DNA of 64,000 bases from Candidatus Magasanikiibacteriota bacterium (GCA_041674805.1 JBAYVA010000003.1:91029-155028), one strand, 5' to 3'. Positions 4,537 to 48,194 are shown, numbered from the stretch's first letter. The notes: generated by a model not told the origin, from the sequence alone. Program-made: numbers and translations.

Positions 4537-5658
4537 TTAAAGATTACAACTATTTATTTCTGACAAAAATGCGAAATATTTTTTTTCAACATAATTTTTG
4601 ATTTTTTTTTTGAAAATCTTTACATCAAAACTTTTAGCATGTTCTCTTATTTTTTGACTATCCCAATTATACTTTTCGAAATTCAAAACTGTTTCAAACA
4701 AACTTTCCCAATCTTGTTTATAAAAAAATAATCCAGTTGCACCATCTATCACAGTCTCAGTCACTCCACCTACTCCATAAGCGATAACAGGCCTACCAGC
4801 TGACATTGCTTCTATAGGTGTAATACCAAAATCTTCTACTTGAGGATGAATAAAAGCTTTGGCAGAACTCAAAATTTTTATTTTTTCTTCCTCACTAACA
4901 CGTCCCAAAAATTCAATATTACTTTTGGCAATTTTTTTCAAAGATTCCAAAGATGGACCATCACCAAAAATCTTTAATTTATAACCAAGACGATTGAAAG
5001 CCTGCACTACTAAATCAAAACGCTTATAATTGACAATGCGCCCACCTGTCACAAAATAATCACCTACTTTTTCACTCACAAAAAATTTATCAAAATCCAC
5101 TGGAGGAAAAATAACATCGCTATTACGACGATAATATTTTTTTATTCTTTTAAAAACAGTATGCGAATTAGCAATAAAATAATCTACTCTATCAACACTA
5201 TTTTTATCCCAAATACGTAATTTGTGTATAAGACGTGGCAAAAATAATTTAATAAAAAAATTATATTTTAAATCATGAATATATTCATGAGTGTCAGACC
5301 ATAAATAACGAGTTGGTGTGTGACAATATGAAATATGTAAACCATCTTCTTTGGTCAAAATTCCTTTAGCAAAAGCACTGGTAGAAGAAAGAACTACGTC
5401 AAAATCACCTAAATTATGTTTTTCCGTAGCAATGGGCATCAAAGGTAAATACCATTGATATTTTTTTCTTACAAAAGGCAACTTGGACAAAAATGATTCT
5501 TTAATCAAATTTTCTGGAAAATTTTTTATTTTTTTATTGTCATGAAATAAAACAAAAATTGGCGCTTCTGGCCAAATCTCATGAAACGCTTGCAAAACTC
5601 TTTCAGCTCCCCCATCTTGTGAAAGATAATCATGTACTAGTGCTATTCTCATAATCAA
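4537..5658 (-). CDS. Glycosyltransferase family 4
   Basis: EDFGITPIEAMSAGRPVIA motif. Confidence 0.8.
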   Translation of the reverse strand: MIMRIALVHDYLSQDGGAERVLQAFHEIWPEAPIFVLFHDNKKIKNFPENLIKESFLSKLPFVRKKYQWYLPLMPIATEKHNLGDFDVVLSSTSAFAKGILTKEDGLHISYCHTPTRYLWSDTHEYIHDLKYNFFIKLFLPRLIHKLRIWDKNSVDRVDYFIANSHTVFKRIKKYYRRNSDVIFPPVDFDKFFVSEKVGDYFVTGGRIVNYKRFDLVVQAFNRLGYKLKIFGDGPSLESLKKIAKSNIEFLGRVSEEEKIKILSSAKAFIHPQVEDFGITPIEAMSAGRPVIAYGVGGVTETVIDGATGLFFYKQDWESLFETVLNFEKYNWDSQKIREHAKSFDVKIFKKKIKNYVEKKYFAFLSEINSCNL

Positions 5659-5748
5659 ATGCTTGAAAGGCTTAAAATACTAGTTGCTACACAAATATTT
5701 TAAAAAGCCTTTCAAGCTTTTGGAGCTTTTCAGGCCTTTTTAGCCTTT

Positions 5749-7167
5749 TTATAAAACTTTTCTCTTTCTAAATAAAATAAAAGGAGTCTTAACAAAAACA
5801 ATAATATCCAAATACAAACTCCATTTTTCTATATAAAAAATATCCAATTTCATTTCTTCTTCAAATGACAAATCACTTCTACCAGAAATTTGAGACAAAC
5901 CTGTAATACCTGGTTTCAAAACAAAAACATCAGGATATTCATCTGAATATTTTTCTACTTCTCTTGGCTGATGTGGACGTGGACCTACAATGCTCATTTC
6001 ACCTTTCAAAACATTAAAAAATTGTGGTAGTTCATCAATACTAACACGACGAATAAATCTACCAAAAGGTGTAACACGTGGATCATTTTCAATTTTGTAA
6101 ATTGGTCCTTTTTTACTATTATTTTTATTAATCAATTCTTTTTCTTTTTTCTCAGCCTCTTCACCAGATTTAACGAATTGACTGCCTGTACAATCTTGTT
6201 GATACATCGAACGAAATTTCAAAGTAAAAAAATTTTTACCACGAATACCCACACGTTCATTTTTGTAAATAATAGGACGACCAGTTTCTAACAAAATAAT
6301 CAAACTAGCCAAAAGCATAATCGGACTAATAATAATCAAAATCATTACACTCATAATAATATCAAAAATTCTTTTGGAAATTCTACCCCACCCATCGAGA
6401 GGTGTCTTTTTTAATTCTACGATAGGTATACCTGCCAAAGTATAGATACTCATATTAGTAGAATAAGTAGCAAAAATATCAGCTGAATATTTGAAAACAA
6501 TATGATTTTTATCACAAAATTGTTTCAATTGGATAATATTATCTTCATTATTTTTTGGACTAAACAAAATAATTTCATTAATATTCATTTTTTTTAATTC
6601 ATCATTTAAATTTTTATGGTAATTTTCATAAACTTTTATAACAAAATAACCTAAACGAGAATTTTTTTCTAAAGTATTTACAAAATCCAAAACATTTTTT
6701 TCTTCTCCTATCACAACAACACGACGCAAACCAATTCCAAAACGATACAAAATTGCTTTTAGACCTCTAAGCAAAAATCTTCCTATCATTACAAAAAACA
6801 TGGCAAAAAACCAACTAGCCAAAAGTAAAAATCTTGAATCAAACAATTGACCTGAAAATACAATATATAGAGAAACTATAGATAATCCAATAAAACAAGC
6901 AAATATTATTTTCAATAAATCTTTTGCAAAACGACGGTTTTGATCAATAGAATACAAACCCAAAATAGCAAAAATTATAATCCAAATTATAGAAAAAATA
7001 CTAACTGTGTTTATAAATTGAGACAAATTGATCCCAAAAATCACCGGTTTGATAGCTACAACAAAATCACTAAAACGCAGTGAATAGGCCGTAAAACCAG
7101 CCAAAACAAGCATCAAAAAGTCAATTGGTACTTGTAATAACATAAGTAAAATTTCCGAACGTTTCAT
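5749..7167 (-). CDS. Polyprenyl-phosphate sugar phosphotransferase (bacterial sugar transferase, WbaP/WcaJ-like priming enzyme)
   Basis: N-terminal multi-TM region. C-terminal domain has KFRSM and [21 protein letters not shown] signatures. Confidence 0.85.
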
Positions 7168-7295: not shown

Positions 7296-7330
7296 AGACC
7301 ACCTTGTTTACACAAGCTGGTCTTAATTAT
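7296..7330 (-). terminator. Intrinsic terminator downstream of rnpB
   Basis: On the plus strand an A-run precedes the hairpin agaccaccttgtttacacaagctggtct, which reads as hairpin plus U-run on the minus strand. Confidence 0.45.
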
Positions 7331-7742
7331 TCATTCTACATTTATAAGCCGAATTTTGTTCCCGACTTAGTCGGGAGATGATCATTTATCTAGACCTATA
7401 ATTGCTTATAGGCTCAAACGAGCTAACTTTTCGAAACGATAAATCGCAACGCTGCTCTTTCTTCAGATAGGGTTTACCACGGCATCTCATCACTGAGAGC
7501 CGAAGCTTGTAACCATTTGTCAATTGTGCAAATGATATCAAACTACTTTTCACCTTTTGTCCGCCGAATCGGCGAGTTAGTATTGTCTCTGTGGCACTTT
7601 CCCGCTCAATACCCTTTCAGATAAAGAGGGTGGACGTTATCCACTATCTTTGTCCCAACCCTTCGAGAAGGGTATGGGGAAGTTCGGACTTTCCTATTAG
7701 TCACAATAAAGCAACCAATCGATCATCAAATGTAAAATGCTA
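7330..7742 (-). ncRNA. rnpB: RNase P RNA (bacterial type A)
   Basis: Minus strand carries AGGAAAGUCCGAAC, matching the P4 5' strand AGGAAAGUCCGGGC. It carries GUGCCACAGAGA, matching the universal GUGCAACAGAGAG. Near the 3' end it carries ACAAAAUUCGGCUUAUAA, matching ACAGAACCCGGCUUA. The P4 pairing AAG-U-CCGAA / UUCGGCUU keeps the bulged U with compensatory GG>AA and CC>UU changes. A 12-bp helix pairs the 5' and 3' ends (CAUUUUACAUUU / AAAUGUAGAAUG). The region is locally GC-richer than the flanks. Confidence 0.8.
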
Positions 7743-8487: not shown

Positions 8488-8569
8488 TATCGAAGGGGGG
8501 ACTCGAACCCCCACGCTCTTACGAGCCTAGCACCTCAAGCTAGTGTGTATACCATTCCACCACTCCGAC
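8488..8569 (-). tRNA. tRNA-Leu (anticodon GAG), class II with long variable arm
   Basis: Minus-strand sequence: GTCGGAG-TG-GTG/GAATGGTATA/CAC-A-CTAGC/TTGAGGT/GCTAG-long variable arm-GGGGG/TTCGAGT/CCCCC-CTTCGAT-A. Acceptor stem has two G-U pairs; discriminator is A73. Coordinates +/-2. Confidence 0.75.
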
Positions 8570-18606: not shown

Positions 18607-21339
18607 CTAAATATTATTAAATTGTTTATTTAACTTCTCCAATTTTTCTTTTGCTTCACTCAACTTATTTGTTTCTTGTTCAATTATACTTGCTGGAGCA
18701 CTACTTACAAAACCTGAATTACTTAGTTTACCTTCAAGTCCTGCAATGTATTTAGTCAATTGTTCTATTTCTTTACCTAGTTTTTCTTTTTCTTTGGCGA
18801 AGTCAACCACGCCCGCAAGTTCAACAAAAACTTCTACACCACTTTCGACAAAAGAAACGGACTGATCAGGTTTTGCAATCTTTTCTTCAATATGCAAATT
18901 TTCTAATCTAGCCAATTTACTAATTATTGCAGAATTTTGTGACAACAAATCTTTTTTATCACCTGCTGAAATTGTGACGTTCAGTTTTTTGACTGGATCA
19001 ATTTTGTAATCACCTTTTATTGAGCGAATACCGACTATCACATTTTGAATAATTTCAAAATCTTTTATTTCTAAATTTTGTTCAGTACTTAAAGGAAATT
19101 TTTCAACCATCAAAATATTTTCTTTACCATAAAATTCTTGCCAGATAGCTTCTGTCACAAATGGCATAAAAGGATGCCAAAGTTTGAGTACTGTGCTCAA
19201 AACGTAATTCAATATTTCTGATTTATTACCTTCAATTTTGGCAATCTCTAGATACCAATCTGCCAAATCATTCCAAGTGAAGTCACGAAGTTTTTCACCA
19301 GCGTAAGATAAGTTCATACTATCCAAATTACTAACAACCACATTACTTACTTCACTCAATTTTTGCAAAATCCATTTATCTGAAAGAGTTTTAGCTTCGG
19401 GCAAACTTATATCTTTCACCAATTTCTTTTCTTCAGCTTCCAAAGTCATTTCAATAAATCTTGCCATGTTCCAAAGTTTGTTAGCAAAATTTCTAAAACC
19501 ACCAATTTTTTCTTCAGACAATTTCATATCATTGCCTGGAGTATTACCGAGCAAAAGTGAAAGACGTGTCGCATCAGTGCCATACTTCTCTATCATATCA
19601 AGTGGATTGATAATATTTCCCAAGCTCTTACTCATTTTACGACCTTGTTCATCACGTACCAAACCATGCAAATAAACAGTTTCAAAAGGAACTTGACCAA
19701 GAGTATAAGTAGTCATAAGTATCATACGAGCTACCCAAAAAAATAAAATATCATAACCAGTTTCAAGTACTGAAGTTGGATGAAAATTTTTCAAATCTTG
19801 TGAATCTAAATTTGGATAACCAAGTGTAGAAAACGTCCATAAACCAGAACTAAACCAAGTATCCAAAGTATCAGGATCTTGTGTCCAGCCTTCACCTTCA
19901 GGTGCATCGACTCCAACAAAAATTTCCTCATTCCCCATTCCACTTTCCTCGTTACTCTTCTTATACCAAACCGGGATCTGATGTCCATACCAAATCTGAC
20001 GAGAAATACACCAATCACGAAGATTATCTATCCAGTTGAAATAAACTTTGTCGAATCTTTCTGGCACGATTTTTATTTGTCCAGTAGTTACTACTTTTTG
20101 CATCAATTCTTTGAGAGAATATTCTTGGCCTTCTTCAATACCCTTCAATTCCAATTTTCCTGTGAACTCTGAACTTTGAACTTTGAACTTTTTGTTTACA
20201 TCTACAAACCATTGAGTTTTTGGTAAAGGTTCAACAACATCTTTGAATCTATCAGAAGTACCAACATTTTGAATGATGTCTTCTTCTTTTTCGAGCAGAC
20301 CTTCGGCACGTAAATAGTTTACAAATTTTTCACGAGCTTCTTCTACACCTAAGCCTGTATAATCACTACCAGCATTACCAGTCATTTTGCCATCTTCACC
20401 AATAACTTGAATCAGTCCAATATCATTGCCAAGTGCTTTTTGTTTCAAATACATTTCAAAATCCACAGGACTGTGAGCTGTGGTTACACCAAGGGCTCCT
20501 GTACCAAAACTTTCATCAACATGATCGTCGCCAATAATTTTTATTTTTAGAATATGACCTTTTTGTCCGACATCTTGTACTTCAAATTCTTGACCAATAT
20601 ATTTTTGGTATTTTCCTGTAGGATTTACAGCCACAGCAGTATCACCAAGCTTGGTTTCCGGACGTGTAGTCGCAATAGTAATCGGAAAATCTTTACTATA
20701 TTTGAAATAATACATCTTAGCAGGACGTTCAATATGAACAAGTTCATCATCACTACAAGTAGATTGACCCTTTACTGACCAATTGATTACTCGGTAGCCT
20801 CGATAAATAAGTCCATCATCATACATTTTTTTGAAAACAGTTTTGACAGCCAAATTTCTTTTGTCATCCAATGTAAAAGCTTCTCTACTCCAATCTAAAC
20901 TAGAACCCATTTTTTTGGATTGATTGACAATAGTATCGTGAGATTCTTGAGCAAACTGAGCAACTCTTTTTAAAAAATTTTCTCTACCCAATTCTTCTTT
21001 TGGTTTTTTGAATTCTCCTGATTCAATCAGCATCTTTTCAACTTTGGATTCAGTAGCAACAGCAGCATGATCAGTACCTGGCACCCAGAGCGTTTTATCG
21101 CCTTTCATACGATGATATCTGACCATTACGTCTTCTATTGCGAGCATGGCAGCATGACCCATGTGTAGTGTTCCTGTGACGTTTGGTGGAGGCAAGACGA
21201 TAGTAAAAGGTTTGGAATCTTCTGTTGTTATTTTCTCTCTAATACAAACATCAGGATCAAAAAATCCACTATCTTCCCAAGACTTATAAATATCATCTTC
21301 GTATTTTTTTGGTTCGTAAGATTTTGCTAGACTTTCCAT
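18607..21339 (-). CDS. valS: Valine--tRNA ligase
   Basis: PPPNVTGTLHMGHA (HIGH), KMSKSLGN, and a C-terminal coiled coil; 910 aa. Confidence 0.95.
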   Translation of the reverse strand: MESLAKSYEPKKYEDDIYKSWEDSGFFDPDVCIREKITTEDSKPFTIVLPPPNVTGTLHMGHAAMLAIEDVMVRYHRMKGDKTLWVPGTDHAAVATESKVEKMLIESGEFKKPKEELGRENFLKRVAQFAQESHDTIVNQSKKMGSSLDWSREAFTLDDKRNLAVKTVFKKMYDDGLIYRGYRVINWSVKGQSTCSDDELVHIERPAKMYYFKYSKDFPITIATTRPETKLGDTAVAVNPTGKYQKYIGQEFEVQDVGQKGHILKIKIIGDDHVDESFGTGALGVTTAHSPVDFEMYLKQKALGNDIGLIQVIGEDGKMTGNAGSDYTGLGVEEAREKFVNYLRAEGLLEKEEDIIQNVGTSDRFKDVVEPLPKTQWFVDVNKKFKVQSSEFTGKLELKGIEEGQEYSLKELMQKVVTTGQIKIVPERFDKVYFNWIDNLRDWCISRQIWYGHQIPVWYKKSNEESGMGNEEIFVGVDAPEGEGWTQDPDTLDTWFSSGLWTFSTLGYPNLDSQDLKNFHPTSVLETGYDILFFWVARMILMTTYTLGQVPFETVYLHGLVRDEQGRKMSKSLGNIINPLDMIEKYGTDATRLSLLLGNTPGNDMKLSEEKIGGFRNFANKLWNMARFIEMTLEAEEKKLVKDISLPEAKTLSDKWILQKLSEVSNVVVSNLDSMNLSYAGEKLRDFTWNDLADWYLEIAKIEGNKSEILNYVLSTVLKLWHPFMPFVTEAIWQEFYGKENILMVEKFPLSTEQNLEIKDFEIIQNVIVGIRSIKGDYKIDPVKKLNVTISAGDKKDLLSQNSAIISKLARLENLHIEEKIAKPDQSVSFVESGVEVFVELAGVVDFAKEKEKLGKEIEQLTKYIAGLEGKLSNSGFVSSAPASIIEQETNKLSEAKEKLEKLNKQFNNI

Positions 21340-21684: not shown

Positions 21685-22827
21685 ATGGCACTTGATAAAA
21701 TAGAACAATTCAACAAAGCTATTGAAGACAAAAAAAATATTTTAATAACTTTCAAAAAACACTTCGATGGCGATGCTATAGGAAGTTCTTTGGCTCTAAA
21801 GCTCTTTTTGGAACAACTAGGCAAACGCGTAGATATTGTCTGTGATTCTTTTGTTTTACCAAGTCAATACCAATTTTTGAAACACTCCAACAAAATAAAA
21901 GATAGTTTTGATGGATTAAATAATTTTGTTATTAGTATTGATGTAGAAAAAAATGGTCTATCTGAATTGAGTTATGACATCAAAGAAAACAAATTGAGAA
22001 TATTTATTACTCCAAAAAATGGTTATATCAACAAAGAAAATATCACTACTAGCCAAAGTGACTTCAAATATGATTTGATAATCACTGTTGATACAACTGA
22101 TTTATCTTCTCTTGGTGACATTTTTACTAATCACGAAAACTTTTTTTATAGCAAACCTCTTATCAATATTGATCACAAAGCCAACAATGAACATTTTGGA
22201 CAAATCAATATTATAGAATTACCTGCTAGTAGCAGTTCTGAAATAGTATTTGAAATTTTGCAACAAGCCAAAGAAGAATTAATCAACAGACAAGTCGCTC
22301 AATCTTTACTAACAGGTATTATTGCTGGTACAAATAGTTTCAAAAAAAATAAAGTCCGTCCACTAACTTTACAAGTTGCTAGTAAATTAGTAGATTTGGG
22401 AGCTGACAGAGCTTTTATTATCAAAAATCTTTATCAAACCAAATCTATTGCTACTTTCAAAATTTGGGGAACTATACTAAGTCATCTAAAAGAAGACAAG
22501 GATTTAAATTTAGTTTGGTCTACTATTACGCGTGACGACTTTGTCAGAAGTGGTGCTAAAAAAGAAGATTTAAACAATATTATAGATGAGTTGATCACGA
22601 CTGCACCTACTGCTCAATTTGTTTTGTTACTCAATGAAGATCCAGAAGAAAAAAACAAAATATCTGGTATATTGAGAATATTACCACAAAATCATGCGAC
22701 AGAAATGATGAAAAAATACAATGCTGATGGTGATGAAAATGAAACAAAATTTGAAATAAATGGCAAAAATTTAAATGATGTGGAAGAAGAAATTGTAGCG
22801 CATATAAAAAATGAGATAAATAAATAA
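21685..22827 (+). CDS. DHH-family phosphoesterase (NrnA-like oligoribonuclease/pAp phosphatase)
   Basis: DHH motif context HFDGDAIGS, IDHKANNEHFG, and a DHHA1-like C-terminal part. Confidence 0.7.
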   Translation: MALDKIEQFNKAIEDKKNILITFKKHFDGDAIGSSLALKLFLEQLGKRVDIVCDSFVLPSQYQFLKHSNKIKDSFDGLNNFVISIDVEKNGLSELSYDIKENKLRIFITPKNGYINKENITTSQSDFKYDLIITVDTTDLSSLGDIFTNHENFFYSKPLINIDHKANNEHFGQINIIELPASSSSEIVFEILQQAKEELINRQVAQSLLTGIIAGTNSFKKNKVRPLTLQVASKLVDLGADRAFIIKNLYQTKSIATFKIWGTILSHLKEDKDLNLVWSTITRDDFVRSGAKKEDLNNIIDELITTAPTAQFVLLLNEDPEEKNKISGILRILPQNHATEMMKKYNADGDENETKFEINGKNLNDVEEEIVAHIKNEINK

Positions 22828-22857
22828 AACACATAACACAATACATATAACAAATAA

Positions 22858-22895
22858 AAAACACGTATAGAAATATTCGTGTTTTATTTTTCTAA
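22858..22895 (+). terminator. Intrinsic terminator after the DHH gene
   Basis: Hairpin aacacgtatagaaatattcgtgtt followed by TTTTATTTTT. Confidence 0.6.
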
Positions 22896-23012
22896 ATTAT
22901 CTATTGTTGACCACAACATTTTGGCAAGTTCTTCTTTTCTATGAAACATATTTATATATTCTTTCGTAGAAAGATAGCCCAAATTACATGCTAAATAAAA
23001 AGTGATAATTGA

Positions 23013-23213
23013 TTATTGCAAAGATCCATAATATATTTTATAAAAATTAGTCATCACTTTTCTCTTCTTTCTAGCAAAACCTTCTACATAATTTAACAAT
23101 ACAGAAACCATAGATCTACGACATTGCGAGGTCAATGTATATCTTTCATCACTTGGAAATTTTCTAGAAATAATGTATCCAGACAATATATAATCTGTAA
23201 TTTTTTTCTTCAA
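23013..23213 (-). pseudogene. Truncated four-helix-bundle protein (23S rRNA intervening-sequence protein / Avd-like family) fragment
   Basis: Carries the family core FPSDERYTLTSQCRRSMVSVLLNYVEGFARK (compare FPxxEkYsLtsQlRRAavSipsNIAEGfgR). No ATG: the frame opens at a stop and only a TTG start is available. About half the expected length. Confidence 0.5.
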
Positions 23214-23280
23214 AATATCATGAAACCACTCCTTAAAACTTTTGATAAATGATATGTGTTATGTGATATGTGGCATGTGC

Positions 23281-24858
23281 TTAAATTAGTGAACGTCCCG
23301 TCATTTCCTCAGGTTTATCTATACCCAAAACTTTGAGAATTGTCGGCGCTACATCACCCAACACACCAGACTTAGGCAAAAGACTCAAATCATCATCAGG
23401 TGAATCTCCTACATTACCAGAAATACCAAATAATTTTTCTTGAATAATAATAAAAGGAACATTGTTGTTACTATTTTGTTTATCAAGAGTACCTGTCTTC
23501 ATACTAAGTACTTCTTCAGCACTACCACTGTCTCCAACAATAAATAAAACTCCGTCTTCAGCCAAAACATATTCAGCAATTTTACCAATATATTTGTCCA
23601 AAATTTCACAAGCTTTTATAGTAGCTTGAAAATCACCAGTTTTAGACACACTTTCAGCATTAGAAAAATTGGCCAAGATAAAATCATACTTTTCTGATTT
23701 TATAGCTTTGACAACATCTTTGACAATTGAATTAGCTGCCATTTCAGGAACTTCTTTATATGACAAAACTTTTTTAGAAGGAACAAGTACAAATTCTTCA
23801 TCACCAAATTTGTCTTCAAACATTCCACTAAAAAAAGAAGTAACACAACTATATTTTTCTGTTTCAGCAATTCTGATTTGTCTCATTTCTGCTTTGGACA
23901 AAACTTCTGCCAAAGAATTATGAATGATATTGCGAGGGTAAGCAACCACAACAGGAATTTCTTTTTCGTAATCAGTCATTGTCACAAAAAATAAATTACG
24001 TAAATAAATACGTTCAAATTTTGGAAAAGCTGGCAAAACAAAAGACTTAGTCAATTGTCTAGCAAGTCTAGCTCCAAAATTAGCAAAAATTACAGCATCA
24101 TTTTTTTGAATAAAATTTAATTTAGTTTTACTACCAATCAAAGTAGGTAAAACATCAGCATCGTAAATTTCTTTGTCATAAGATTTTTGAATAGCTTCAA
24201 AAGATGTCTCTTCAATATTCAAAACTTTTTCACCTGTCATGTGATAATAGGCCAAAGAAATTTTGTCCCAATTACGACCATTGTCCAAAGCATAATTTCT
24301 ACCAGAAATACTAACAATTTTACCTATACCTAATTCAGACATTTTAGCTTCTATTTTTTTTATATGATGAATACCATTGTTATAAATATCATCTTCACCA
24401 TCCAAAATAGCATGCACAAAAACTTCTTTTACCTTGTTTTGTTTTGCCACTTGCAATAAAGCAAAAAAATGTTCATCATTGGCATTGTGAATTTGATTCC
24501 CAAATAAAGTAATAATATGTAAATTAGAATTATTTTTTTCAGTATGTTCTATAGCTGACAAAAAAGCATGATTGGAAAAAAACTTACCACTCGCTATAGC
24601 AGCATTTATTCTTGGTAAAATTTTTTTATAAATTCTACCAGAACCAATATTCAAATGACCAACACGAGAATTACCAGCTTCAAAATCCAAAAGTCCCACA
24701 TCTTTACCAGACGCACCAAGACTCATCACTGGATATTGTTGAATAAATTTATCAAAATTTGGAGTATTAGCTTTAAAAATTGCATTGCCAGGTGTATTTG
24801 GTGCAATTCCCCAACCACTCAAAGTAAGTAAAACAGCAGGTTTTGGACGATTCATCAT
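23281..24858 (-). CDS. iPGM-like paralog (alkaline-phosphatase superfamily) with degenerate metal-binding sites; probable pseudoenzyme or altered function
   Basis: Full-length similarity to cofactor-independent phosphoglycerate mutase, including the catalytic Ser in GNSRVGH. Against the neighbouring paralog: the conserved DGxG aspartate is Ser (LSGWG vs ILDGFG); MVGHTGD is SVSKTGD; ADHGNAE is GDSGSAE; NHVPF is NNVPF. The likely real start is the MMNRP methionine, not the extended track start at 24912. Confidence 0.6.
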   Translation of the reverse strand: MMNRPKPAVLLTLSGWGIAPNTPGNAIFKANTPNFDKFIQQYPVMSLGASGKDVGLLDFEAGNSRVGHLNIGSGRIYKKILPRINAAIASGKFFSNHAFLSAIEHTEKNNSNLHIITLFGNQIHNANDEHFFALLQVAKQNKVKEVFVHAILDGEDDIYNNGIHHIKKIEAKMSELGIGKIVSISGRNYALDNGRNWDKISLAYYHMTGEKVLNIEETSFEAIQKSYDKEIYDADVLPTLIGSKTKLNFIQKNDAVIFANFGARLARQLTKSFVLPAFPKFERIYLRNLFFVTMTDYEKEIPVVVAYPRNIIHNSLAEVLSKAEMRQIRIAETEKYSCVTSFFSGMFEDKFGDEEFVLVPSKKVLSYKEVPEMAANSIVKDVVKAIKSEKYDFILANFSNAESVSKTGDFQATIKACEILDKYIGKIAEYVLAEDGVLFIVGDSGSAEEVLSMKTGTLDKQNSNNNVPFIIIQEKLFGISGNVGDSPDDDLSLLPKSGVLGDVAPTILKVLGIDKPEEMTGRSLI

Positions 24859-24950
24859 AATTTTAAATTTAGCAATTTTAAATTTTAATTTGTCCGCCTT
24901 GGGTGGAAACAATTTAAAAATTTTACAATTTCATCCCGATTTTATCAGGA

Positions 24951-26534
24951 CTAAATTAAAGAATGTCCCGTCATTTCATCTGGTTTTTCAATATTCAACA
25001 CTTTCAAAATAGTCGGAGCAATATCTGAAAGTCTACCTTTTTTCAATTTTGTTTTCTTATCATCACTAATCAAAATAAATGGGACATGATTATCAGTATG
25101 AGACGTCATAATCTCCCCAGTCTTTTCATCAAACATCTTTTCAGCATTACCATGATCAGCCGTAATAAATACTATACCATTTTTTGATAAAACACAATCT
25201 ACTACTCTTTTCACCTGATTATCCATATAATTTACCGCTTTTTTAGCTGCTTCAAAATCACCAGTATGCCCGACCATGTCAGCGTTAGGATAATTTACTG
25301 TAATAAAATTGTAAGTATTATTTTCTAAATAATTTATAATAATATTAGTAATTTCTTGTGCATGCATTTCTGGTTTATCAGCATATGAATAATGTGCACC
25401 AGATTTTATCATAAGTCTTTTTTCACCATTAATAGGTTCTGAATAACCACCATTCATAAAATAAGTAACATGCGCGTATTTTTCAGTTTCAGAAATATAT
25501 AATTGATTATAATTTTCACCAATTGCTTTGGCCAAACAATTTTTAAAATCTGGACTTGGAAAAGCTGTAAAAATTCCTGGTAAATCTGGACCAAAATCTG
25601 TCATAGCCACAAAACGAATATTTTTTGGTAATTTGTTTCTTTTAAACGCACCTGGATTCATCTTTTGAAAATTTTCCTGAACTAAAGACTTGGTAATTTG
25701 TCTAGCTCTATCACTTCTGGCATTGAAAAAATAAATAACATCATTATCTTCAATGTTACCCACAGGTTTTCCACCTTCAACAATAACTGTGGGTAAAATG
25801 TATTCATCAGTTTCATCTCTATTATAAGCTTGAGAAATTGCTTCTTCAGCACTTTCAGCTTGTAAACCAACACCCGAGACCATAGCATCATAAGCTTGTT
25901 TAGTTCTACTCCACATTTTGTTTCTATCCATACCATAAAATCTACCCATAATCGTCGCAATTTTTTCACCATTTTTCATATTCTTACGCAAAAGACGCAA
26001 AAAATTTACAGCACCATGAGTAGAAGAATCACGACCATCTGTAAACAAATGTAAAAAAACTTTTTTATGTCCTTGCTTACGAAAATATTCTAATAAAGAA
26101 TAAATATGTTCTGGATTAGAATGAGCACTTTGACCATCAGTCAAAAGTCCCATCAAATGAACAGAACTATTATATTTTTTGGCATGATAAAGAGCATGAC
26201 GAAATGAGTCATTTTTGAAAAAAGTTCCATCTTTGATAGCATGCGTAATTCGCACCAAATCTTGCTCAACTACTCTACCCGCGCCAATATTCAAATGTCC
26301 TGCTTCAGAATTTCCTTCTTGATTAGGAAAAAGACCAACATCCAAACCACTAGCTATAAGTTGAGTATTAGAATAATCTTTTATATAAGAAAAAATATTT
26401 GGTGCTGTCTCTGGTGTAATTGCATTACCAACATTTTTGAAATCAGCCAAACCAAAACCATCGAGGATCATGAAGACAACTGGCTTGTTTTTTTTATTGA
26501 TTTCTTCGTTTTGTAGGTTTAATTCTTTTGACAT
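24951..26534 (-). CDS. gpmI: 2,3-bisphosphoglycerate-independent phosphoglycerate mutase
   Basis: ILDGFG, GNSEAGH (catalytic Ser), NADMVGHTGD, TADHGNAE and NHVPF are all intact. Confidence 0.85.
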   Translation of the reverse strand: MSKELNLQNEEINKKNKPVVFMILDGFGLADFKNVGNAITPETAPNIFSYIKDYSNTQLIASGLDVGLFPNQEGNSEAGHLNIGAGRVVEQDLVRITHAIKDGTFFKNDSFRHALYHAKKYNSSVHLMGLLTDGQSAHSNPEHIYSLLEYFRKQGHKKVFLHLFTDGRDSSTHGAVNFLRLLRKNMKNGEKIATIMGRFYGMDRNKMWSRTKQAYDAMVSGVGLQAESAEEAISQAYNRDETDEYILPTVIVEGGKPVGNIEDNDVIYFFNARSDRARQITKSLVQENFQKMNPGAFKRNKLPKNIRFVAMTDFGPDLPGIFTAFPSPDFKNCLAKAIGENYNQLYISETEKYAHVTYFMNGGYSEPINGEKRLMIKSGAHYSYADKPEMHAQEITNIIINYLENNTYNFITVNYPNADMVGHTGDFEAAKKAVNYMDNQVKRVVDCVLSKNGIVFITADHGNAEKMFDEKTGEIMTSHTDNHVPFILISDDKKTKLKKGRLSDIAPTILKVLNIEKPDEMTGHSLI

Positions 26535-26596
26535 ATTTAAAAATTTCCAATACTAAATAAACAAATTCCAAATAATATACAAATAACAAATTAAAA

Positions 26597-26947
26597 TTAT
26601 GTAGATTTGTCTATTATAGTGGATAATATTTTTCTTAACTCAATTGATTCGTTTAGTAAGGATTTTATTCTATTTGCTAAATTTAAATTATTATCAATAA
26701 TCAGTTCTATCCAATATGTAGTTTCTTTACATTCTTTTCTCGAGATTTTGATTCTGTGTAAAAAATCTTTTTTACTCAATTTTTCATTTGCCTCTCTATA
26801 ATTTGCTCCAACTGAAGTGGAAGAACGTATTATTTGTTTTATATATACATTATTTATTTCACTTTTTTCTAAAGCTTTGCACATTTTTGCAATTCTTTTC
26901 GCAAACTCCAAAGTTCTTGTTTCCAAGTTGTAAATTTTCCCCTCCAT
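26597..26947 (-). CDS. Four-helix-bundle protein (23S rRNA-IVS / Avd-like family), full length
   Basis: 116 aa. IIRSSTSVGANYREANEKLSKKDFLHRIKISRKECKETTYWIELI fits the family pattern. Confidence 0.6.
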   Translation of the reverse strand: MEGKIYNLETRTLEFAKRIAKMCKALEKSEINNVYIKQIIRSSTSVGANYREANEKLSKKDFLHRIKISRKECKETTYWIELIIDNNLNLANRIKSLLNESIELRKILSTIIDKST

Positions 26948-27005
26948 AAATTTTTTTGTATATTGTAATTTTGATATTATTTGGAATTTGTTTATTTAAT
27001 ATTGT

Positions 27006-28262
27006 TTATTTTTCAGTTTCTTCTTCAATCTCCATCAATCTATTATACTTCTCCACTCTTTCCGATCTACTCATAGAACCTGTTTTGATAAACTCAGAAT
27101 TTACAGCGACAGCTAGGTCAGCAATGAAAGTATCAGCAGTCTCACCTGAACGATGTGACACAGAAACTTTGTAACCATTTTTCTTAGCTAAATAAATCGC
27201 ATCAATTGTTTCAGTCAAAGTTCCAATTTGATTAAGCTTGATAAGTACAGCATTAGCTACTTTTTCATCAATTCCTTTTTGTATACGTTTGACGTTGGTC
27301 ACAAACAAATCATCTCCTACAATAGTCACTTTCTTACCAAATTTTTTGGTAAGAAGAGCCCAATTTTCCCAATCATCTTCAGCCAATGGATCTTCAATAG
27401 AAAGTATAGGATATTTTCTAATCCAAGTTTCTAAAATTCTAATCATTTTGTCTGCACTAGAAGCTTGTGAAGGGCTAGAAAAATAATATTTACCCTTACG
27501 ATAAAATTCTGAAGCAGCAATATCAAAACCAAGAAAAACATTTTTGCCAGGTTCAAAACCTGATGATTGTATTGCTTTTATTACCAATTGAATTGCTCTT
27601 TCATTGTTGAGTAAGTCCGGCGCAAAACCACCTTCATCTCCTACCGAAGTAGTATAACCTTTATCATTCAAAATTGCTTTGAGAGAATGAAAAATTTGAG
27701 AACCCATTCTAACACGCTCGGCAAATTTTTTGTGAATTGGAATAATCATGAATTCCTGACAACTCAAATTGTTGTCAGCGTGTCGTCCACCATTTAAAAT
27801 GTTCATAGTCGCTACTGGCATCCTCCAAGTCTTTTCTGGCAAATTATAAGCACTGCGAATATATTTATATAAAGGCATTTTACTTGCTTTGGCACCAGCA
27901 CGAGCACAGGCAAGAGACACTGACAAAATAGCATTTGCCCCAAGTTTTTTCTTGTTTTCAGTACCATCTAAATCTAACATTAATTTATCAATATTCCTTT
28001 GGTCCAAAACATCTTTACCTATTAAAGCTTTATTAATCAGAGTATTAACATTTTTTACAGCTTTGAGAACTCCTTTACCGCCAAAACGTTGAGCATTGTC
28101 ACGAAGTTCAAGTGCTTCATGAGTACCTGTAGAAGCTCCCGATGGGACAGCAGCCTTACCAATAGCACCACCTTCCAAATAAACTTTTGTTTCTAGAGTT
28201 GGATTACCACGTGAATCCAAAATTTCTCTAGAAACAATTTTTTTTATTTCAGTGTTTTTCAT
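27006..28262 (-). CDS. eno: Enolase
   Basis: MKNTEIKKIVSREILDSRGNPTLETKV N-terminus and conserved enolase core; 418 aa. Confidence 0.95.
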   Translation of the reverse strand: MKNTEIKKIVSREILDSRGNPTLETKVYLEGGAIGKAAVPSGASTGTHEALELRDNAQRFGGKGVLKAVKNVNTLINKALIGKDVLDQRNIDKLMLDLDGTENKKKLGANAILSVSLACARAGAKASKMPLYKYIRSAYNLPEKTWRMPVATMNILNGGRHADNNLSCQEFMIIPIHKKFAERVRMGSQIFHSLKAILNDKGYTTSVGDEGGFAPDLLNNERAIQLVIKAIQSSGFEPGKNVFLGFDIAASEFYRKGKYYFSSPSQASSADKMIRILETWIRKYPILSIEDPLAEDDWENWALLTKKFGKKVTIVGDDLFVTNVKRIQKGIDEKVANAVLIKLNQIGTLTETIDAIYLAKKNGYKVSVSHRSGETADTFIADLAVAVNSEFIKTGSMSRSERVEKYNRLMEIEEETEK

Positions 28263-28397: not shown

Positions 28398-28432
28398 GCC
28401 TTTTGGAAAGGCTGTCTTTAATTCTAGCTAAT
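28398..28432 (-). terminator. Intrinsic terminator after the SIMPL gene
   Basis: aaaaaaaacagccttttggaaaggctgtc on the plus strand reads as hairpin plus U-run on the minus strand. Confidence 0.55.
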
Positions 28433-29343
28433 TATTTTATTTTGTAATTGATAGTTATATTCAATTTTACTGTCTCAGTACCAGTTTCAATAGTAGGACC
28501 AGCACCAACAGATGATTCTAACATTGCCTTATCATAATACATACCTTCATATTCACCAGGAACATATTCACTATAACTCAAGATTGTTTCTAAGTTTATA
28601 CCCAACATTTGAGACAATTGAGCTGCTTTTACTTTGGCATCCTTGATAGCTTTTTGTCTAGCTTCTGCAATATATACTTCTTTATCATCAATACTTTGAG
28701 TTACACCACCAATAGTATTTAGACCCACTTCAGAAGATAAAGCTACAACTTTACTAGCCAAACTAACATTATTACGAACTTTGACAGTTACACTTTGATT
28801 TATACTATAACCTGACAAACTACTTGTACCATCAGTAGCATAGTTATATTCAGGATACATACTTTGAGATTCTGTCTTAATATCTGCTTCTGGGATACCC
28901 AAAGCTTTTACTTTTGTTACAAAGTCAGCTATTAATTTATCATTTTTTTCCATAGCTTCTTGTGAAGTTGCTGCTTTGATAGCAGTACCCACTACTACAG
29001 TACTCACATTTGGTTTTACTTCTACACTACCTTCACCTGTAACTGAAATTTGTTTATCATACAGTTGTCTATCTGCTACACCAATATAATCATATTTTTT
29101 TATTTCATTGCGAATGAGAGTTCCAATGAAAATAATCAAATACACAATTAAAATACCAACGAAAGTCATAATCAACTTTCTACCAAAATGACAACTATGC
29201 TCTTTGCAATGTTTCATCATACCAAAATGACCACCACGACAACAATCGTGTTTTTCTGTTGGCATAGAATCCATAGCAGGCATGTCAGTCATCGAACTTA
29301 AAGTTTTACTACCAGAAGTAGTTTCTGTTTTCTTGACAGGCAT
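28432..29343 (-). CDS. SIMPL-domain (DUF541) membrane-anchored protein with a Cys/His-rich N-terminus
   Basis: N-terminal HDCCRGGHFGMMKHCKEHSCHFG, one TM helix, then a SIMPL-like domain ending TIETGTETVKLNITINYKI. Confidence 0.55.
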   Translation of the reverse strand: MPVKKTETTSGSKTLSSMTDMPAMDSMPTEKHDCCRGGHFGMMKHCKEHSCHFGRKLIMTFVGILIVYLIIFIGTLIRNEIKKYDYIGVADRQLYDKQISVTGEGSVEVKPNVSTVVVGTAIKAATSQEAMEKNDKLIADFVTKVKALGIPEADIKTESQSMYPEYNYATDGTSSLSGYSINQSVTVKVRNNVSLASKVVALSSEVGLNTIGGVTQSIDDKEVYIAEARQKAIKDAKVKAAQLSQMLGINLETILSYSEYVPGEYEGMYYDKAMLESSVGAGPTIETGTETVKLNITINYKIK

Positions 29344-48120: not shown

Positions 48121-48194
48121 GGGCTAGTAGCTCAGTTGGTTAGAGCACAACGCTTATAACGTTGGGGTCGATGGTTCAAGTCCATCCTAGCCTA
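48121..48194 (+). tRNA. tRNA with anticodon UAU (Ile, AUA-reading) - canonical cloverleaf
   Basis: GGGCTAG-TA-GCTC/AGTTGGTTA/GAGC-A-CAACG/CTTATAA/CGTTG-GGGTC-GATGG/TTCAAGT/CCATC-CTAGCCT-A. Anticodon-loop positions 34-36 are TAT. Confidence 0.7.

What the first reader, a model, noticed from the sequence alone, without database searches (positions are those of the whole stretch)
23013..26947. Tandem iPGM paralogs: one canonical, one with the Mn-ligand set erased. The pair is flanked by Avd-like four-helix-bundle genes, one of which is a start-less fragment.
Copy B (24951..26534) keeps every catalytic and metal-binding residue of cofactor-independent phosphoglycerate mutase. Copy A (23281..24858) is colinear and keeps the phospho-Ser motif (GNSRVGH). 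It has lost the DGxG Asp (now Ser), the His of MVGH (SVSK), the His of DHGN (DSGS) and the terminal His (NNVPF). That is the pattern of a pseudoenzyme or a neofunctionalised phosphatase-superfamily member. A full 4HB / 23S-IVS-family gene sits upstream of the pair. A truncated copy lacking any ATG, followed by a short (T)ATGTG tandem repeat, sits downstream. This suggests the duplication was mediated or marked by these elements.
Basis: seen in the sequence. Interest (0 to 1): 0.6.

Follow-up and report, generated by a model that had tools for sequence, protein, structure and literature searches.

The report
Dead phosphoglycerate mutase paralog kept by selection
A tiny-genome (Magasanikbacteria) bacterium carries two side-by-side copies of a glycolytic enzyme; one works, while the other has lost nearly all its catalytic residues yet is still conserved by natural selection, and the same loss has happened independently in related lineages.

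Summary
On the minus strand lies an operon: enolase, 4HB gene, iPGM-B, iPGM-A, 4HB pseudogene, terminator. B keeps all 16 catalytic, metal and substrate positions of Geobacillus iPGM (1EJJ). A keeps Ser62, His66, Asp154, Arg185, Lys336 and Asp444. It has D12S, D403E, H407K, H445S and H462N (5 of 7 metal/nucleophile positions), plus H123N, R153E, R191N, R261G and R264L.

A is not a decaying pseudogene. Intact orthologs with the same derived core occur in at least 7 related Magasanikbacteria genomes in identical synteny. dN/dS is about 0.10 in two unsaturated pairs. AlphaFold gives a confident iPGM fold.

The pair is not a recent duplication. B-type and A-type are about 44% identical, and both are canonical in tandem in most Magasanikbacteria. 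The A-slot copy has lost its catalytic residues in at least two, probably more, independent lineages; B never has.

The 4HB genes did not mediate the duplication. They are two dissimilar, patchily distributed elements resembling 23S-rRNA intervening sequences (IVS), each an ORF inside terminal inverted repeats. The downstream one has lost its start (ATG to AAG) and carries an in-frame TAA.

Best reading: A is a selection-maintained pseudoenzyme with an unknown non-catalytic role, and B does the catalysis.

The parts
27006..28262 (-). Enolase, first gene of the operon
   Evidence: PF03952 and PF00113, E = 1e-58 and 1e-108. Conserved upstream of the iPGM pair in L001-L015 and L020.
26539..27013 (-). 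IVS-like element 1. Terminal inverted repeats (arms 26539-26596 and 26956-27013) enclose the intact 4HB gene and fill the whole enolase-to-B spacer.
   Evidence: 58-nt arms, 83% complementary, with a 25-bp perfect core found only at these two sites in the window. The RNA fold closes the terminal stem, z = -4.4. The same element is at the same site in L012.
26597..26947 (-). Intact four-helix-bundle gene (116 aa; PF05635 / TIGR02436)
   Evidence: PF05635 at 73 bits; TIGR02436 at 89 bits. dN/dS is 0.066 against the L012 ortholog.
24951..26534 (-). iPGM copy B (B-type), canonical; presumed active 3PG/2PG mutase
   Evidence: All 16 key residues intact. 1EJJ E = 1e-126. TIGR01307 at 552 bits. 100% identical to a protein named from Candidatus Magasanikbacteria, on a 744-kb contig.
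23281..24858 (-). iPGM copy A (A-type, degenerate); pseudoenzyme
   Evidence: 10 of 16 key positions substituted. Orthologs are intact in at least 7 related genomes. dN/dS is about 0.10. AF2 pLDDT 91.4 and TM 0.81-0.87 to iPGM structures.
22830..23265 (-). IVS-like element 2. Inverted heptamer-repeat arms (22830-22854 and 23241-23265) enclose the 4HB pseudogene.
   Evidence: Inverted-repeat pair I7: 25 nt, 80% complementary. Heptamer arrays on both sides. The MFE structure pairs the ends, but z = -1.2 is not significant.
22884..23234 (-). 4HB pseudogene, a different PF05635 member. Start lost (AAG at 23232-23234); in-frame TAA at 23013-23015.
   Evidence: PF05635 at 48 bits on the 66-aa ORF. 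The intact ortholog in L011 has ATG and GAA at those codons. L007 retains only a deletion scar.
22856..22883 (-). Operon-end terminator hairpin (ACACG...CGTGT followed by T5)
   Evidence: Read directly from the sequence. Conserved in L007 and L011. Not reported by the consensus scan because it has too few G-C pairs.

Best explanation
Copy A is a catalytically dead but selection-maintained paralog (pseudoenzyme) of cofactor-independent phosphoglycerate mutase. It appears to be co-transcribed with enolase and the active paralog B.

Shown:
- Magasanikbacteria ancestrally carry a tandem pair of two old iPGM paralogs: B-type upstream, and A-type downstream carrying a lineage-specific C-terminal loop GD-P--DLSL. 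In most genomes both are canonical.
- In the window's lineage the A-type copy lost the substrate-binding residues (H123N, R153E, R191N, R261G, R264L) and D12 on the stem branch. The Mn ligands then drifted: H407 is R/H/K/I, H462 is S/P/G/N, D403 is D/E, H445 is H/S.
- The protein still has a confident iPGM fold. It keeps 71 of 103 near-invariant family positions. It evolves at dN/dS of about 0.1.
- The same A-slot copy has degenerated in other lineages with different substitutions (independence was tested for two of them); B is always canonical.

Inferred:
- B alone performs the Mn-dependent phosphoserine mutase reaction.
- A cannot bind the Mn pair or phosphoglycerate in the canonical way. 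It is kept for a non-catalytic role that the A-type protein already had or acquired. The most likely role is binding, either of a ligand or of a partner protein in lower glycolysis. This might involve the retained GNSRxGH/Lys335 pocket and the conserved A-type loop.
- Redundancy with B is what allowed the repeated loss of catalysis.
For: - Residue mapping to 1EJJ.
- 234 of 241 homologs keep the full signature; only the A clade deviates.
- Orthologs with the same derived core are intact in L001, L004, L006, L007, L011, L012, L013 and L015.
- Synteny SIMPL-eno-B-A-DHH-ValRS is conserved.
- dN/dS for A: 0.10 (window vs L007; Sd 113, Nd 55; p = 3e-38) and 0.095 (L001 vs L011). In that second pair enolase is 0.088 and B is 0.22. 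Both domains of A are constrained, at 0.078 and 0.132.
- Relative rates: the distance ratio A/B has a median of 0.84 (maximum 1.09) in 24 canonical genomes, against 1.3-2.1 in the degenerate clade. Constraint is relaxed but strong.
- Of 103 near-invariant columns, 71 are kept, 9 are fixed to a new residue and 23 are mixed.
- AF2 pLDDT 91.4, pTM 0.87; TM 0.81-0.87 to 1O98, 1EJJ and 4NWJ.
- A canonical tandem pair exists in the distant genome GCA_002787355.
- Other degenerations in the same slot beside a canonical B: P0241, P0246 and P0271 by contig look-up, P0247 by matching contig length only. In a B-partner tree the window clade is monophyletic in 100% of bootstraps and never groups with the P0241 and P0246 hosts (L016, L020), 0 of 300; the P0247 and P0271 hosts were not in that tree.
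- 18 of 20 degenerate 50%-cluster representatives carry the A-type loop, against 7 of 132 others.
Against: - No biochemical data: inactivity is inferred from residue loss.
- Ser62, His66, Lys336, Asp154, Arg185 and Asp444 are retained and 9 positions are fixed to new residues, so a different chemistry cannot be excluded.
- The non-catalytic role and any partner are entirely unknown.
- iPGMs are normally monomers, so a heterodimer or 'prozyme' model has no precedent in this family.
- dS estimates in 30%-GC genomes are rough, and distant pairs are saturated.
It was verified directly only for L008 (L009 repeats the same region).
- The trees are NJ trees on single proteins.
Confidence: 0.7

Rival explanations
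1. Neofunctionalised enzyme: A still catalyses a reaction, for example a metal-independent phosphotransfer or hydrolysis on a less anionic substrate. It would use Ser62, His66 and Lys336, with new cationic side chains (E63R, H407K/R) replacing the metal charges.
For: - Ser62, His66, Lys336, Asp154, Arg185 and Asp444 are invariant in the clade.
- Nine family-invariant positions are fixed to one new residue in all members, including E63R, R153E and H339C.
- H407 is K or R in 9 of 18 degenerate representatives that replaced it, against a background K+R frequency of 11%.
- Purifying selection is as strong as on enolase in a close pair.
Against: - Positions 403, 407, 445 and 462 vary within the clade. 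That looks like drift at a disused site, not a tuned new site.
- Other degenerate lineages have even lost Ser62, to A, C, P, T, K or R.
- No alkaline-phosphatase-superfamily member is known to me to be catalytic without its metals (from memory).
Confidence: 0.2
2. Plain pseudogene: A is a non-functional relic decaying neutrally after B made it redundant.
For: - Catalytic residues are lost and metal-ligand positions drift.
- A evolves 1.3-2.1 times faster than B in the clade, whereas the canonical A-type evolves more slowly than B.
Against: - No stop or frameshift in 9 independent assemblies spanning 67-92% amino-acid identity.
- dN/dS is about 0.1 with p < 1e-11 against neutrality in two pairs.
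- 71 of 103 near-invariant positions are retained.
- The predicted fold is confident.
- CPR (candidate phyla radiation, Patescibacteria) genomes are small and would be expected to delete 1.6 kb of junk (inference).
Confidence: 0.04
3. One reading: a recent tandem duplication mediated or marked by the flanking 4HB elements, followed by decay of one copy.
For: 4HB genes do flank the pair in the window. Orthologous 4HB elements sit at the same two spacers in some relatives, L011 and L012.
Against: - A and B are 37% identical. They belong to two old clades, each with hundreds of Magasanikbacteria members.
- The tandem pair exists without 4HB genes in L001, L004, L006, L008, L016 and L020.
- The two 4HB proteins are not detectably similar to each other.
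Confidence: 0.02

Closest known systems
Cofactor-independent phosphoglycerate mutase (GpmI/iPGM; TIGR01307; PDB 1EJJ, 1O98, 4NWJ)
   Same: Full-length homology over both the phosphatase and transferase domains. Same predicted fold (TM 0.81-0.87). Nucleophile motif GNSxxGH retained. Encoded next to enolase.
   Different: 5 of 7 metal/nucleophile positions and 5 of 9 substrate-contact positions are replaced. It still scores 478 bits against TIGR01307 (cut-off 331), so pipelines name it a genuine iPGM. It carries the CPR A-type C-terminal loop, which Geobacillus iPGM and copy B lack.
Pseudoenzyme paralogs retained beside an active paralog, e.g. the trypanosomatid AdoMetDC and deoxyhypusine synthase 'prozymes' (recalled from memory, not tested here)
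   Same: A duplicate of an active enzyme that has lost catalytic residues, remains under purifying selection and is co-encoded with the active copy.
   Different: There is no evidence here of heteromerisation or activation. iPGM is normally monomeric. The loss recurs in several lineages of one ancient paralog. No iPGM pseudoenzyme was found in the searchable literature.
Bacterial iPGM paralogs surveyed by Foster et al. 2010 (PMC2964296)
   Same: Two bacterial-type iPGM genes in one genome.
   Different: That survey found duplicates in only 4 of 702 genomes, mostly large ones. It attributed them to lateral transfer, a recent duplication or a stop-codon pseudogene. Here the pair is ancient, tandem, lineage-wide and in very small genomes, and the degenerate copy is an intact ORF.
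23S rRNA intervening sequences carrying an S23p/4HB ORF, e.g. the Coxiella burnetii IVS (PMC4990558)
   Same: Elements of about 430-475 nt. A PF05635 ORF sits in the loop of a stem formed by terminal inverted repeats. There are tandem heptamer repeats near the ORF. The ORF is prone to decay.
   Different: They sit in mRNA spacers of a glycolytic operon, not in 23S rRNA helices. RNase III excision is untested. Element 1's ORF is under purifying selection (dN/dS 0.066).

Membership tests
iPGM (functional 2,3-BPG-independent phosphoglycerate mutase) | Two-domain iPGM sequence and fold (PF06415 inserted in PF01676) | tested here: met
   Pfam E = 1e-52 and 2e-51. TIGR01307 at 478 bits against a cut-off of 331. 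AF2 plus Foldseek TM 0.81-0.87 to 1O98 and 4NWJ.
iPGM (functional 2,3-BPG-independent phosphoglycerate mutase) | Phosphoserine nucleophile (Ser62 in Geobacillus numbering) | tested here: met
   Ser64 in GNSRVGH aligns with Ser62. Invariant in the A clade.
iPGM (functional 2,3-BPG-independent phosphoglycerate mutase) | Mn1 ligands Asp403, His407 and His462 | tested here: not met
   D403E, H407K and H462N in copy A. Ligand assignment is from established knowledge of 1EJJ. All three are invariant in 234 canonical homologs.
iPGM (functional 2,3-BPG-independent phosphoglycerate mutase) | Mn2 ligands Asp12, Asp444 and His445 | tested here: not met
   D12S and H445S; only Asp444 is kept.
iPGM (functional 2,3-BPG-independent phosphoglycerate mutase) | Substrate-contact residues His123, Arg153, Arg191, Arg261 and Arg264 | tested here: not met
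   H123N, R153E, R191N, R261G and R264L. Asp154, Arg185 and Lys336 are kept.
iPGM (functional 2,3-BPG-independent phosphoglycerate mutase) | 3PG/2PG mutase activity | not testable with these tools
   Needs an enzyme assay.
Pseudoenzyme | Clear homolog of an active enzyme, with key catalytic residues missing | tested here: met
Pseudoenzyme | Maintained by purifying selection and conserved across species | tested here: met
   dN/dS 0.10 and 0.095. Intact in at least 7 related genomes.
Pseudoenzyme | Demonstrated lack of the ancestral activity and a defined non-catalytic function | not testable with these tools
   Requires biochemistry or genetics.
23S rRNA IVS element with S23p/4HB ORF | ORF belongs to PF05635 / TIGR02436 | tested here: met
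   73 bits for the intact gene; 48 bits for the pseudogene ORF, and 83 bits for its intact ortholog in L011.
23S rRNA IVS element with S23p/4HB ORF | Terminal inverted repeats forming a long stem around the ORF | tested here: met
   Element 1: 58-nt arms with a 25-bp perfect core, z = -4.4. Element 2: 25-nt arms at 80%, z = -1.2, weak.
23S rRNA IVS element with S23p/4HB ORF | Located within a 23S rRNA helix | tested here: not met
   Both lie in spacers between protein-coding genes. There is no rRNA in the window.
23S rRNA IVS element with S23p/4HB ORF | Excision by RNase III | not testable with these tools
   Needs RNA-end mapping or an in vitro cleavage assay.
DGR accessory variability determinant (Avd) | bAvd profile match above threshold, and an adjacent reverse transcriptase with TR/VR repeats | tested here: not met
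   PF22296 scores 21-25 bits against a cut-off of 40. Neighbouring genes are enolase, iPGM, DHH, SIMPL and HD; none is an RT. TR/VR repeats were not searched for specifically.

The most novel reading that the evidence does not exclude
The A-type iPGM of Magasanikbacteria has a second, non-catalytic function, and that function is what selection really maintains. It might be mediated by the lineage-specific GD-P--DLSL loop, or by a metal-free anion pocket formed by Ser62, His66, Lys336 and the new cationic residues at positions 63 and 407.

Because B supplies mutase activity, the catalytic site of A has been discarded repeatedly. This has generated a diverse, unannotated family of iPGM-derived binding or regulatory proteins ('prozyme'- or sensor-like) for lower glycolysis in CPR bacteria. 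All of them are currently mislabelled as active iPGM.
Probability: 0.25. Interest if true: 0.7.

Novelty: new variant of a known kind. Interest (0 to 1): 0.5.

Why it matters
- Lower glycolysis (3PG to 2PG to PEP) is central to ATP generation in CPR bacteria, which have very small genomes (background knowledge). A conserved second iPGM is therefore already unusual: duplicates were found in only 4 of 702 bacterial genomes in PMC2964296.
- One paralog has repeatedly lost catalysis yet stays under selection as strong as on enolase. This points to an unrecognised non-catalytic role for an alkaline-phosphatase-superfamily fold. It also offers a natural series of intermediates, from 2 to 5 metal/nucleophile positions lost, for studying how pseudoenzymes arise.
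- Practically, these proteins exceed the TIGR01307 equivalog cut-off. They are annotated as active iPGM, which inflates metabolic reconstructions.
- The side finding matters separately. 4HB ORFs framed by inverted repeats, like those of rRNA IVSs, also occupy mRNA spacers. This bears on the unresolved nature of IVS elements.

Tried and rejected
- Literature searches for an iPGM pseudoenzyme, Magasanikbacteria PGM, or papers linking 23S IVS to four-helix-bundle proteins returned nothing relevant. The CPR search returned only general metabolism papers.
- Biopython YN00 failed (NaN) for most pairs, so I wrote my own NG86 with a binomial test.
- A first bootstrap NJ with BLOSUM distances timed out. 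I redid it with Kimura distances.
- The last homology search, on the independent degenerate protein P0246, found no close family. It has only a 43% relative, P0247, which is also degenerate. Selection could therefore not be tested in that lineage.
- The first 4HB-pseudogene dN/dS was misaligned by one codon and was corrected.
- Element 2's RNA stem is not statistically supported.
- The consensus terminator scan missed the operon-end hairpin, and the promoter-like hits do not exceed the shuffled expectation, so no promoter claim is made.
The idea that E63R and R153E form a compensating interdomain charge swap could not be checked.
- The Avd/DGR reading of the 4HB genes was rejected: the profile score is below threshold and there is no RT nearby.


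Full report
**1. What is there**

The window is about 30% G+C. Copy B is 100% identical to a protein that NCBI names from a Candidatus Magasanikbacteria MAG, on a 744-kb contig. On the minus strand the region reads as follows:
- SIMPL-family gene (28432-29343)
- enolase (27006-28262)
- a 116-aa PF05635 four-helix-bundle (4HB) gene (26597-26947)
- iPGM copy B (24951-26534)
- iPGM copy A (23281-24858)
- a degraded second PF05635 gene (22884-23234)
- a hairpin followed by a T-run (22856-22883)
- convergent to these, a DHH-family gene (21685-22827, plus strand), and then ValRS

**2. Check of the observation**

A and B are colinear and 37% identical. B aligns end to end with Geobacillus stearothermophilus iPGM (1EJJ, E = 1e-126). 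I mapped 16 positions onto this structure. They are the Ser62 nucleophile, the Mn ligands D12, D403, H407, D444, H445 and H462, and the substrate contacts H66, H123, R153, D154, R185, R191, R261, R264 and K336. The assignment comes from established knowledge of the 1EJJ and 1O98 structures.
- B is DSHHRDRRRRKDHDHH, fully canonical.
- A is SSHNEDRNGLKEKDSN.

A therefore keeps S62, H66, D154, R185, K336 and D444. It has lost 5 of the 7 metal/nucleophile positions, and four of the five arginines plus H123 among the substrate contacts.

It named the wrong 'terminal His': the ligand H462 aligns with TSHT in B and KQNS in A, not with NHVPF. It missed D403E. It missed the whole substrate-binding set.

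Among 241 full-length homologs, 234 have the complete canonical signature. Only copy A and six close relatives deviate.

**3. Copy A is not a decaying pseudogene**

Proteins 92% (P0001) and 67-69% (P0002-P0006) identical to A exist. A scan of GTDB species representatives found six Magasanikbacteria genomes with such a gene.

All nine distinct gene sequences examined are uninterrupted and 525-527 codons long. All share D12S, E63R, H123N, R153E, R261G, R264L and H339C, and all have replaced R191 (mostly with N). Positions 403 (D/E), 407 (R/H/K/I), 445 (H/S) and 462 (S/P/G/N) vary. So the substrate site and D12 were lost on the stem of the clade, and the metal ligands drifted afterwards.

| Gene, genome pair | dS | dN/dS | Note |
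|---|---|---|---|
| A, window vs L007 | 0.46 | 0.10 | 113 synonymous vs 55 non-synonymous changes; p = 3e-38 against neutrality |
| A phosphatase domain, same pair | | 0.078 | |
| A transferase domain, same pair | | 0.132 | |
| DHH, same pair | | 0.029 | |
| A, L001 vs L011 | 0.09 | 0.095 | p = 2e-12 |
| enolase, L001 vs L011 | | 0.088 | |
| B, L001 vs L011 | | 0.22 | |
| DHH, L001 vs L011 | | 0.008 | |

These values come from my own NG86 implementation.

Constraint on A is nevertheless relaxed relative to its canonical state. In 24 genomes with two canonical copies, the A-type protein diverges more slowly than the B-type (distance ratio median 0.84, maximum 1.09). Within the degenerate clade the ratio is 1.3-2.1 (identities).

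Of 103 alignment columns that are at least 97% conserved in canonical sequences, 71 are fully kept in the clade, 9 are fixed to one new residue and 23 are mixed. AlphaFold2 predicts a confident two-domain fold (pLDDT 91.4, pTM 0.87). Its best PDB matches are iPGM structures (1O98, 1EJJ, 4NWJ; TM 0.81-0.87).

**4. Origin of the pair**

The pair is not a recent duplication. A's nearest canonical relatives are 50-55% identical to it and number in the hundreds, mostly named Magasanikbacteria. They share with A a C-terminal insertion of about 16 residues (G..GD.P..DLSL) that B and Geobacillus lack. B has its own large clade at 63-84% identity.

The two clades are about 44% identical to each other. 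The A-type is closer to Geobacillus than the B-type is (50% against 44%).

Many contigs appear to carry one gene of each type, judged by matching contig lengths. In GCA_002787355 I confirmed directly the order PGK-eno-...-B-type-A-type-...-DHH-ValRS, with both copies canonical. The tandem B-A pair is therefore ancestral in this group.

In the B-type NJ tree the window's clade nests normally. In the A-type tree it sits on a long stem branch.

**5. The loss is recurrent**

A search of 1.84 billion 50%-identity cluster representatives returned 152 iPGM-family representatives nearest to A.
- 19 of them (20 when P0247, whose 462 column is a gap, is included) have at least 2 of the 7 metal/nucleophile positions replaced, each with a different pattern.
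- 18 of those 20 carry the A-type loop motif, against 7 of the other 132.

Contig look-ups show three of them in the same A slot:
- P0241 (L016): downstream of a canonical B-type gene and upstream of DHH and ValRS.
- P0246 (L020): the same, downstream of a canonical B-type gene and upstream of DHH and ValRS.
- P0271 (L021): upstream of DHH and ValRS. Only the C-terminal 164 residues of the upstream iPGM gene lie on the contig, and they keep D403, H407, D444, H445 and H462.

P0247 shares a contig length (44,997 bp) with the canonical B-type protein P0198, which suggests the same arrangement, but its contig was not looked up.

I used the B partner as a host marker. In 300 bootstraps the window's clade is monophyletic every time and never groups with L016 or L020. 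P0241 retains D12, H123, R191 and R264, which the window clade lost. It has lost D154 and D444, which the window clade keeps. So at least two, and probably more, independent degenerations hit the same paralog. No degenerate B was seen.

Some replacements recur across degenerate representatives: R153 to I, V or E in 15 of 18; H407 to K or R in 9 of 18; D444 to S in 9 of 13. These counts are not phylogenetically independent.

**6. How it most likely works**

Shown: B is canonical. A lacks the residues needed to hold the two Mn ions and the phosphoglycerate, is well folded, and is under purifying selection. The A copy is the one that dies, repeatedly.

Inferred:
- B carries out the mutase step.
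- Redundancy freed A from catalytic constraint.
- A persists because it has another, non-catalytic role. That role is probably binding a ligand or a partner related to lower glycolysis, since A shares an operon with enolase and B.
- Candidate functional surfaces are the still-invariant GNSRxGH, Lys335, Asp156 and Arg187 pocket, now with extra cationic residues at 63 and 407, and the A-type-specific loop. That loop stays conserved even in the most degenerate lineages.

I cannot tell a binding or regulatory role from a new metal-free chemistry. The within-clade drift at positions 403, 407, 445 and 462, and the loss of Ser62 itself in other lineages, favour the non-catalytic reading.

**7. The 4HB genes**

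Both are PF05635/TIGR02436 members. They are not detectably similar to each other, and they fall below the bAvd threshold.

Each lies between terminal inverted repeats.
- Element 1: arms 26539-26596 and 26956-27013, 58 nt, 83% complementary, with a unique 25-bp perfect core. Its RNA fold closes this stem (z = -4.4).
- Element 2: arms 22830-22854 and 23241-23265, built from inverse heptamer repeats. The fold is not significant.

This is the architecture described for 23S-rRNA intervening sequences. The 428-nt Coxiella IVS, for example, has a 28-bp terminal stem, an S23p ORF, heptamer repeats and RNase III excision (PMC4990558). Here the elements sit in mRNA spacers.

They are patchy among relatives:
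- L012 has element 1.
- L011 has an intact element 2, with ATG and GAA where the window has AAG and TAA.
- L007, the closest relative, keeps only a deletion scar.
- L001, L004 and L006 lack both. L013 also shows neither, and instead has a 192-aa ORF inserted between B and A.

Element 1's ORF is under purifying selection (dN/dS 0.066). Element 2's ORF is 85-95% identical in DNA to L011, while the flanking A gene is 62-82% identical. Its dS is 0.19, against at least 0.7 for the flanking genes in comparably distant genome pairs. This hints at recent exchange but does not prove it.

These data exclude a role for the 4HB genes in creating the iPGM pair.

**8. Comparison with what is known, and novelty**

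By homology A belongs to the iPGM family, and it passes the TIGR01307 equivalog cut-off (478 bits against 331). It fails the defining catalytic features, so it should not be filed as a functional iPGM. It fits the general concept of a pseudoenzyme paralog.

I found no report of an iPGM pseudoenzyme or of this tandem pair. A 702-genome survey found iPGM duplicates to be rare and of other kinds (PMC2964296).

I rate it a new variant of a known kind. Interest is moderate (0.5): a clean, recurrent, selection-maintained loss of catalysis in a core glycolytic enzyme of tiny genomes, with an unknown retained function.

Noticed in passing
window 26539-27013 and 22830-23265: Both PF05635 four-helix-bundle ORFs sit between terminal inverted repeats, like 23S-rRNA intervening sequences, but in mRNA spacers of the enolase-iPGM operon. 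Element 1's stem has a 25-bp perfect core and is a plausible RNase III substrate. The elements are patchy among relatives, and element 2 is much more similar to its L011 copy than the flanking genes are.
   Followed up: partly
L001 13605-16910 (also L002): The ValRS of a related Magasanikbacteria genome is 1101 aa. It carries a PF00300 (His_Phos_1, the dPGM-family histidine phosphatase) domain inserted inside the tRNA-synthetase domain. The window's ValRS (18607-21339, 910 aa) was not scanned against Pfam here; its shorter length suggests it lacks the insertion.
   Followed up: no
L013 about 5400-5990: In one relative a 192-aa ORF with no Pfam hit is inserted between iPGM-B and iPGM-A. The spacers of this operon appear to be hot spots for insertions.
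   Followed up: partly
L004 5916-6289: The enolase-to-B spacer of another relative holds a 374-nt insert with G+C-rich inverted repeats (CGTCATCCTGTCCGTCA ... TGACGGACGGCATGACG). It looks like a MITE and is unrelated to the 4HB element.
   Followed up: no
L001 9283-12105: A 940-aa ORF with no Pfam match lies between iPGM-A and DHH in the RIFOXYD12_FULL_33_17-like genomes. It is absent from the window.
   Followed up: no
P0241-P0389 (representatives search): About one in eight of the iPGM-family 50%-cluster representatives nearest to copy A have degenerate active sites. Several have even lost the Ser62 nucleophile (to A, C, P, T, K or R). Nearly all carry the A-type C-terminal loop, and those with a source name are labelled as ordinary iPGM.
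   Followed up: partly
window 7329-7738 (-), 8488-8569 (-), 48121-48194 (+): Bacterial class A RNase P RNA and two tRNAs are the only Rfam gathering-level hits in the window. There is no rRNA, so the 4HB elements here are not near an rRNA operon.
   Followed up: no
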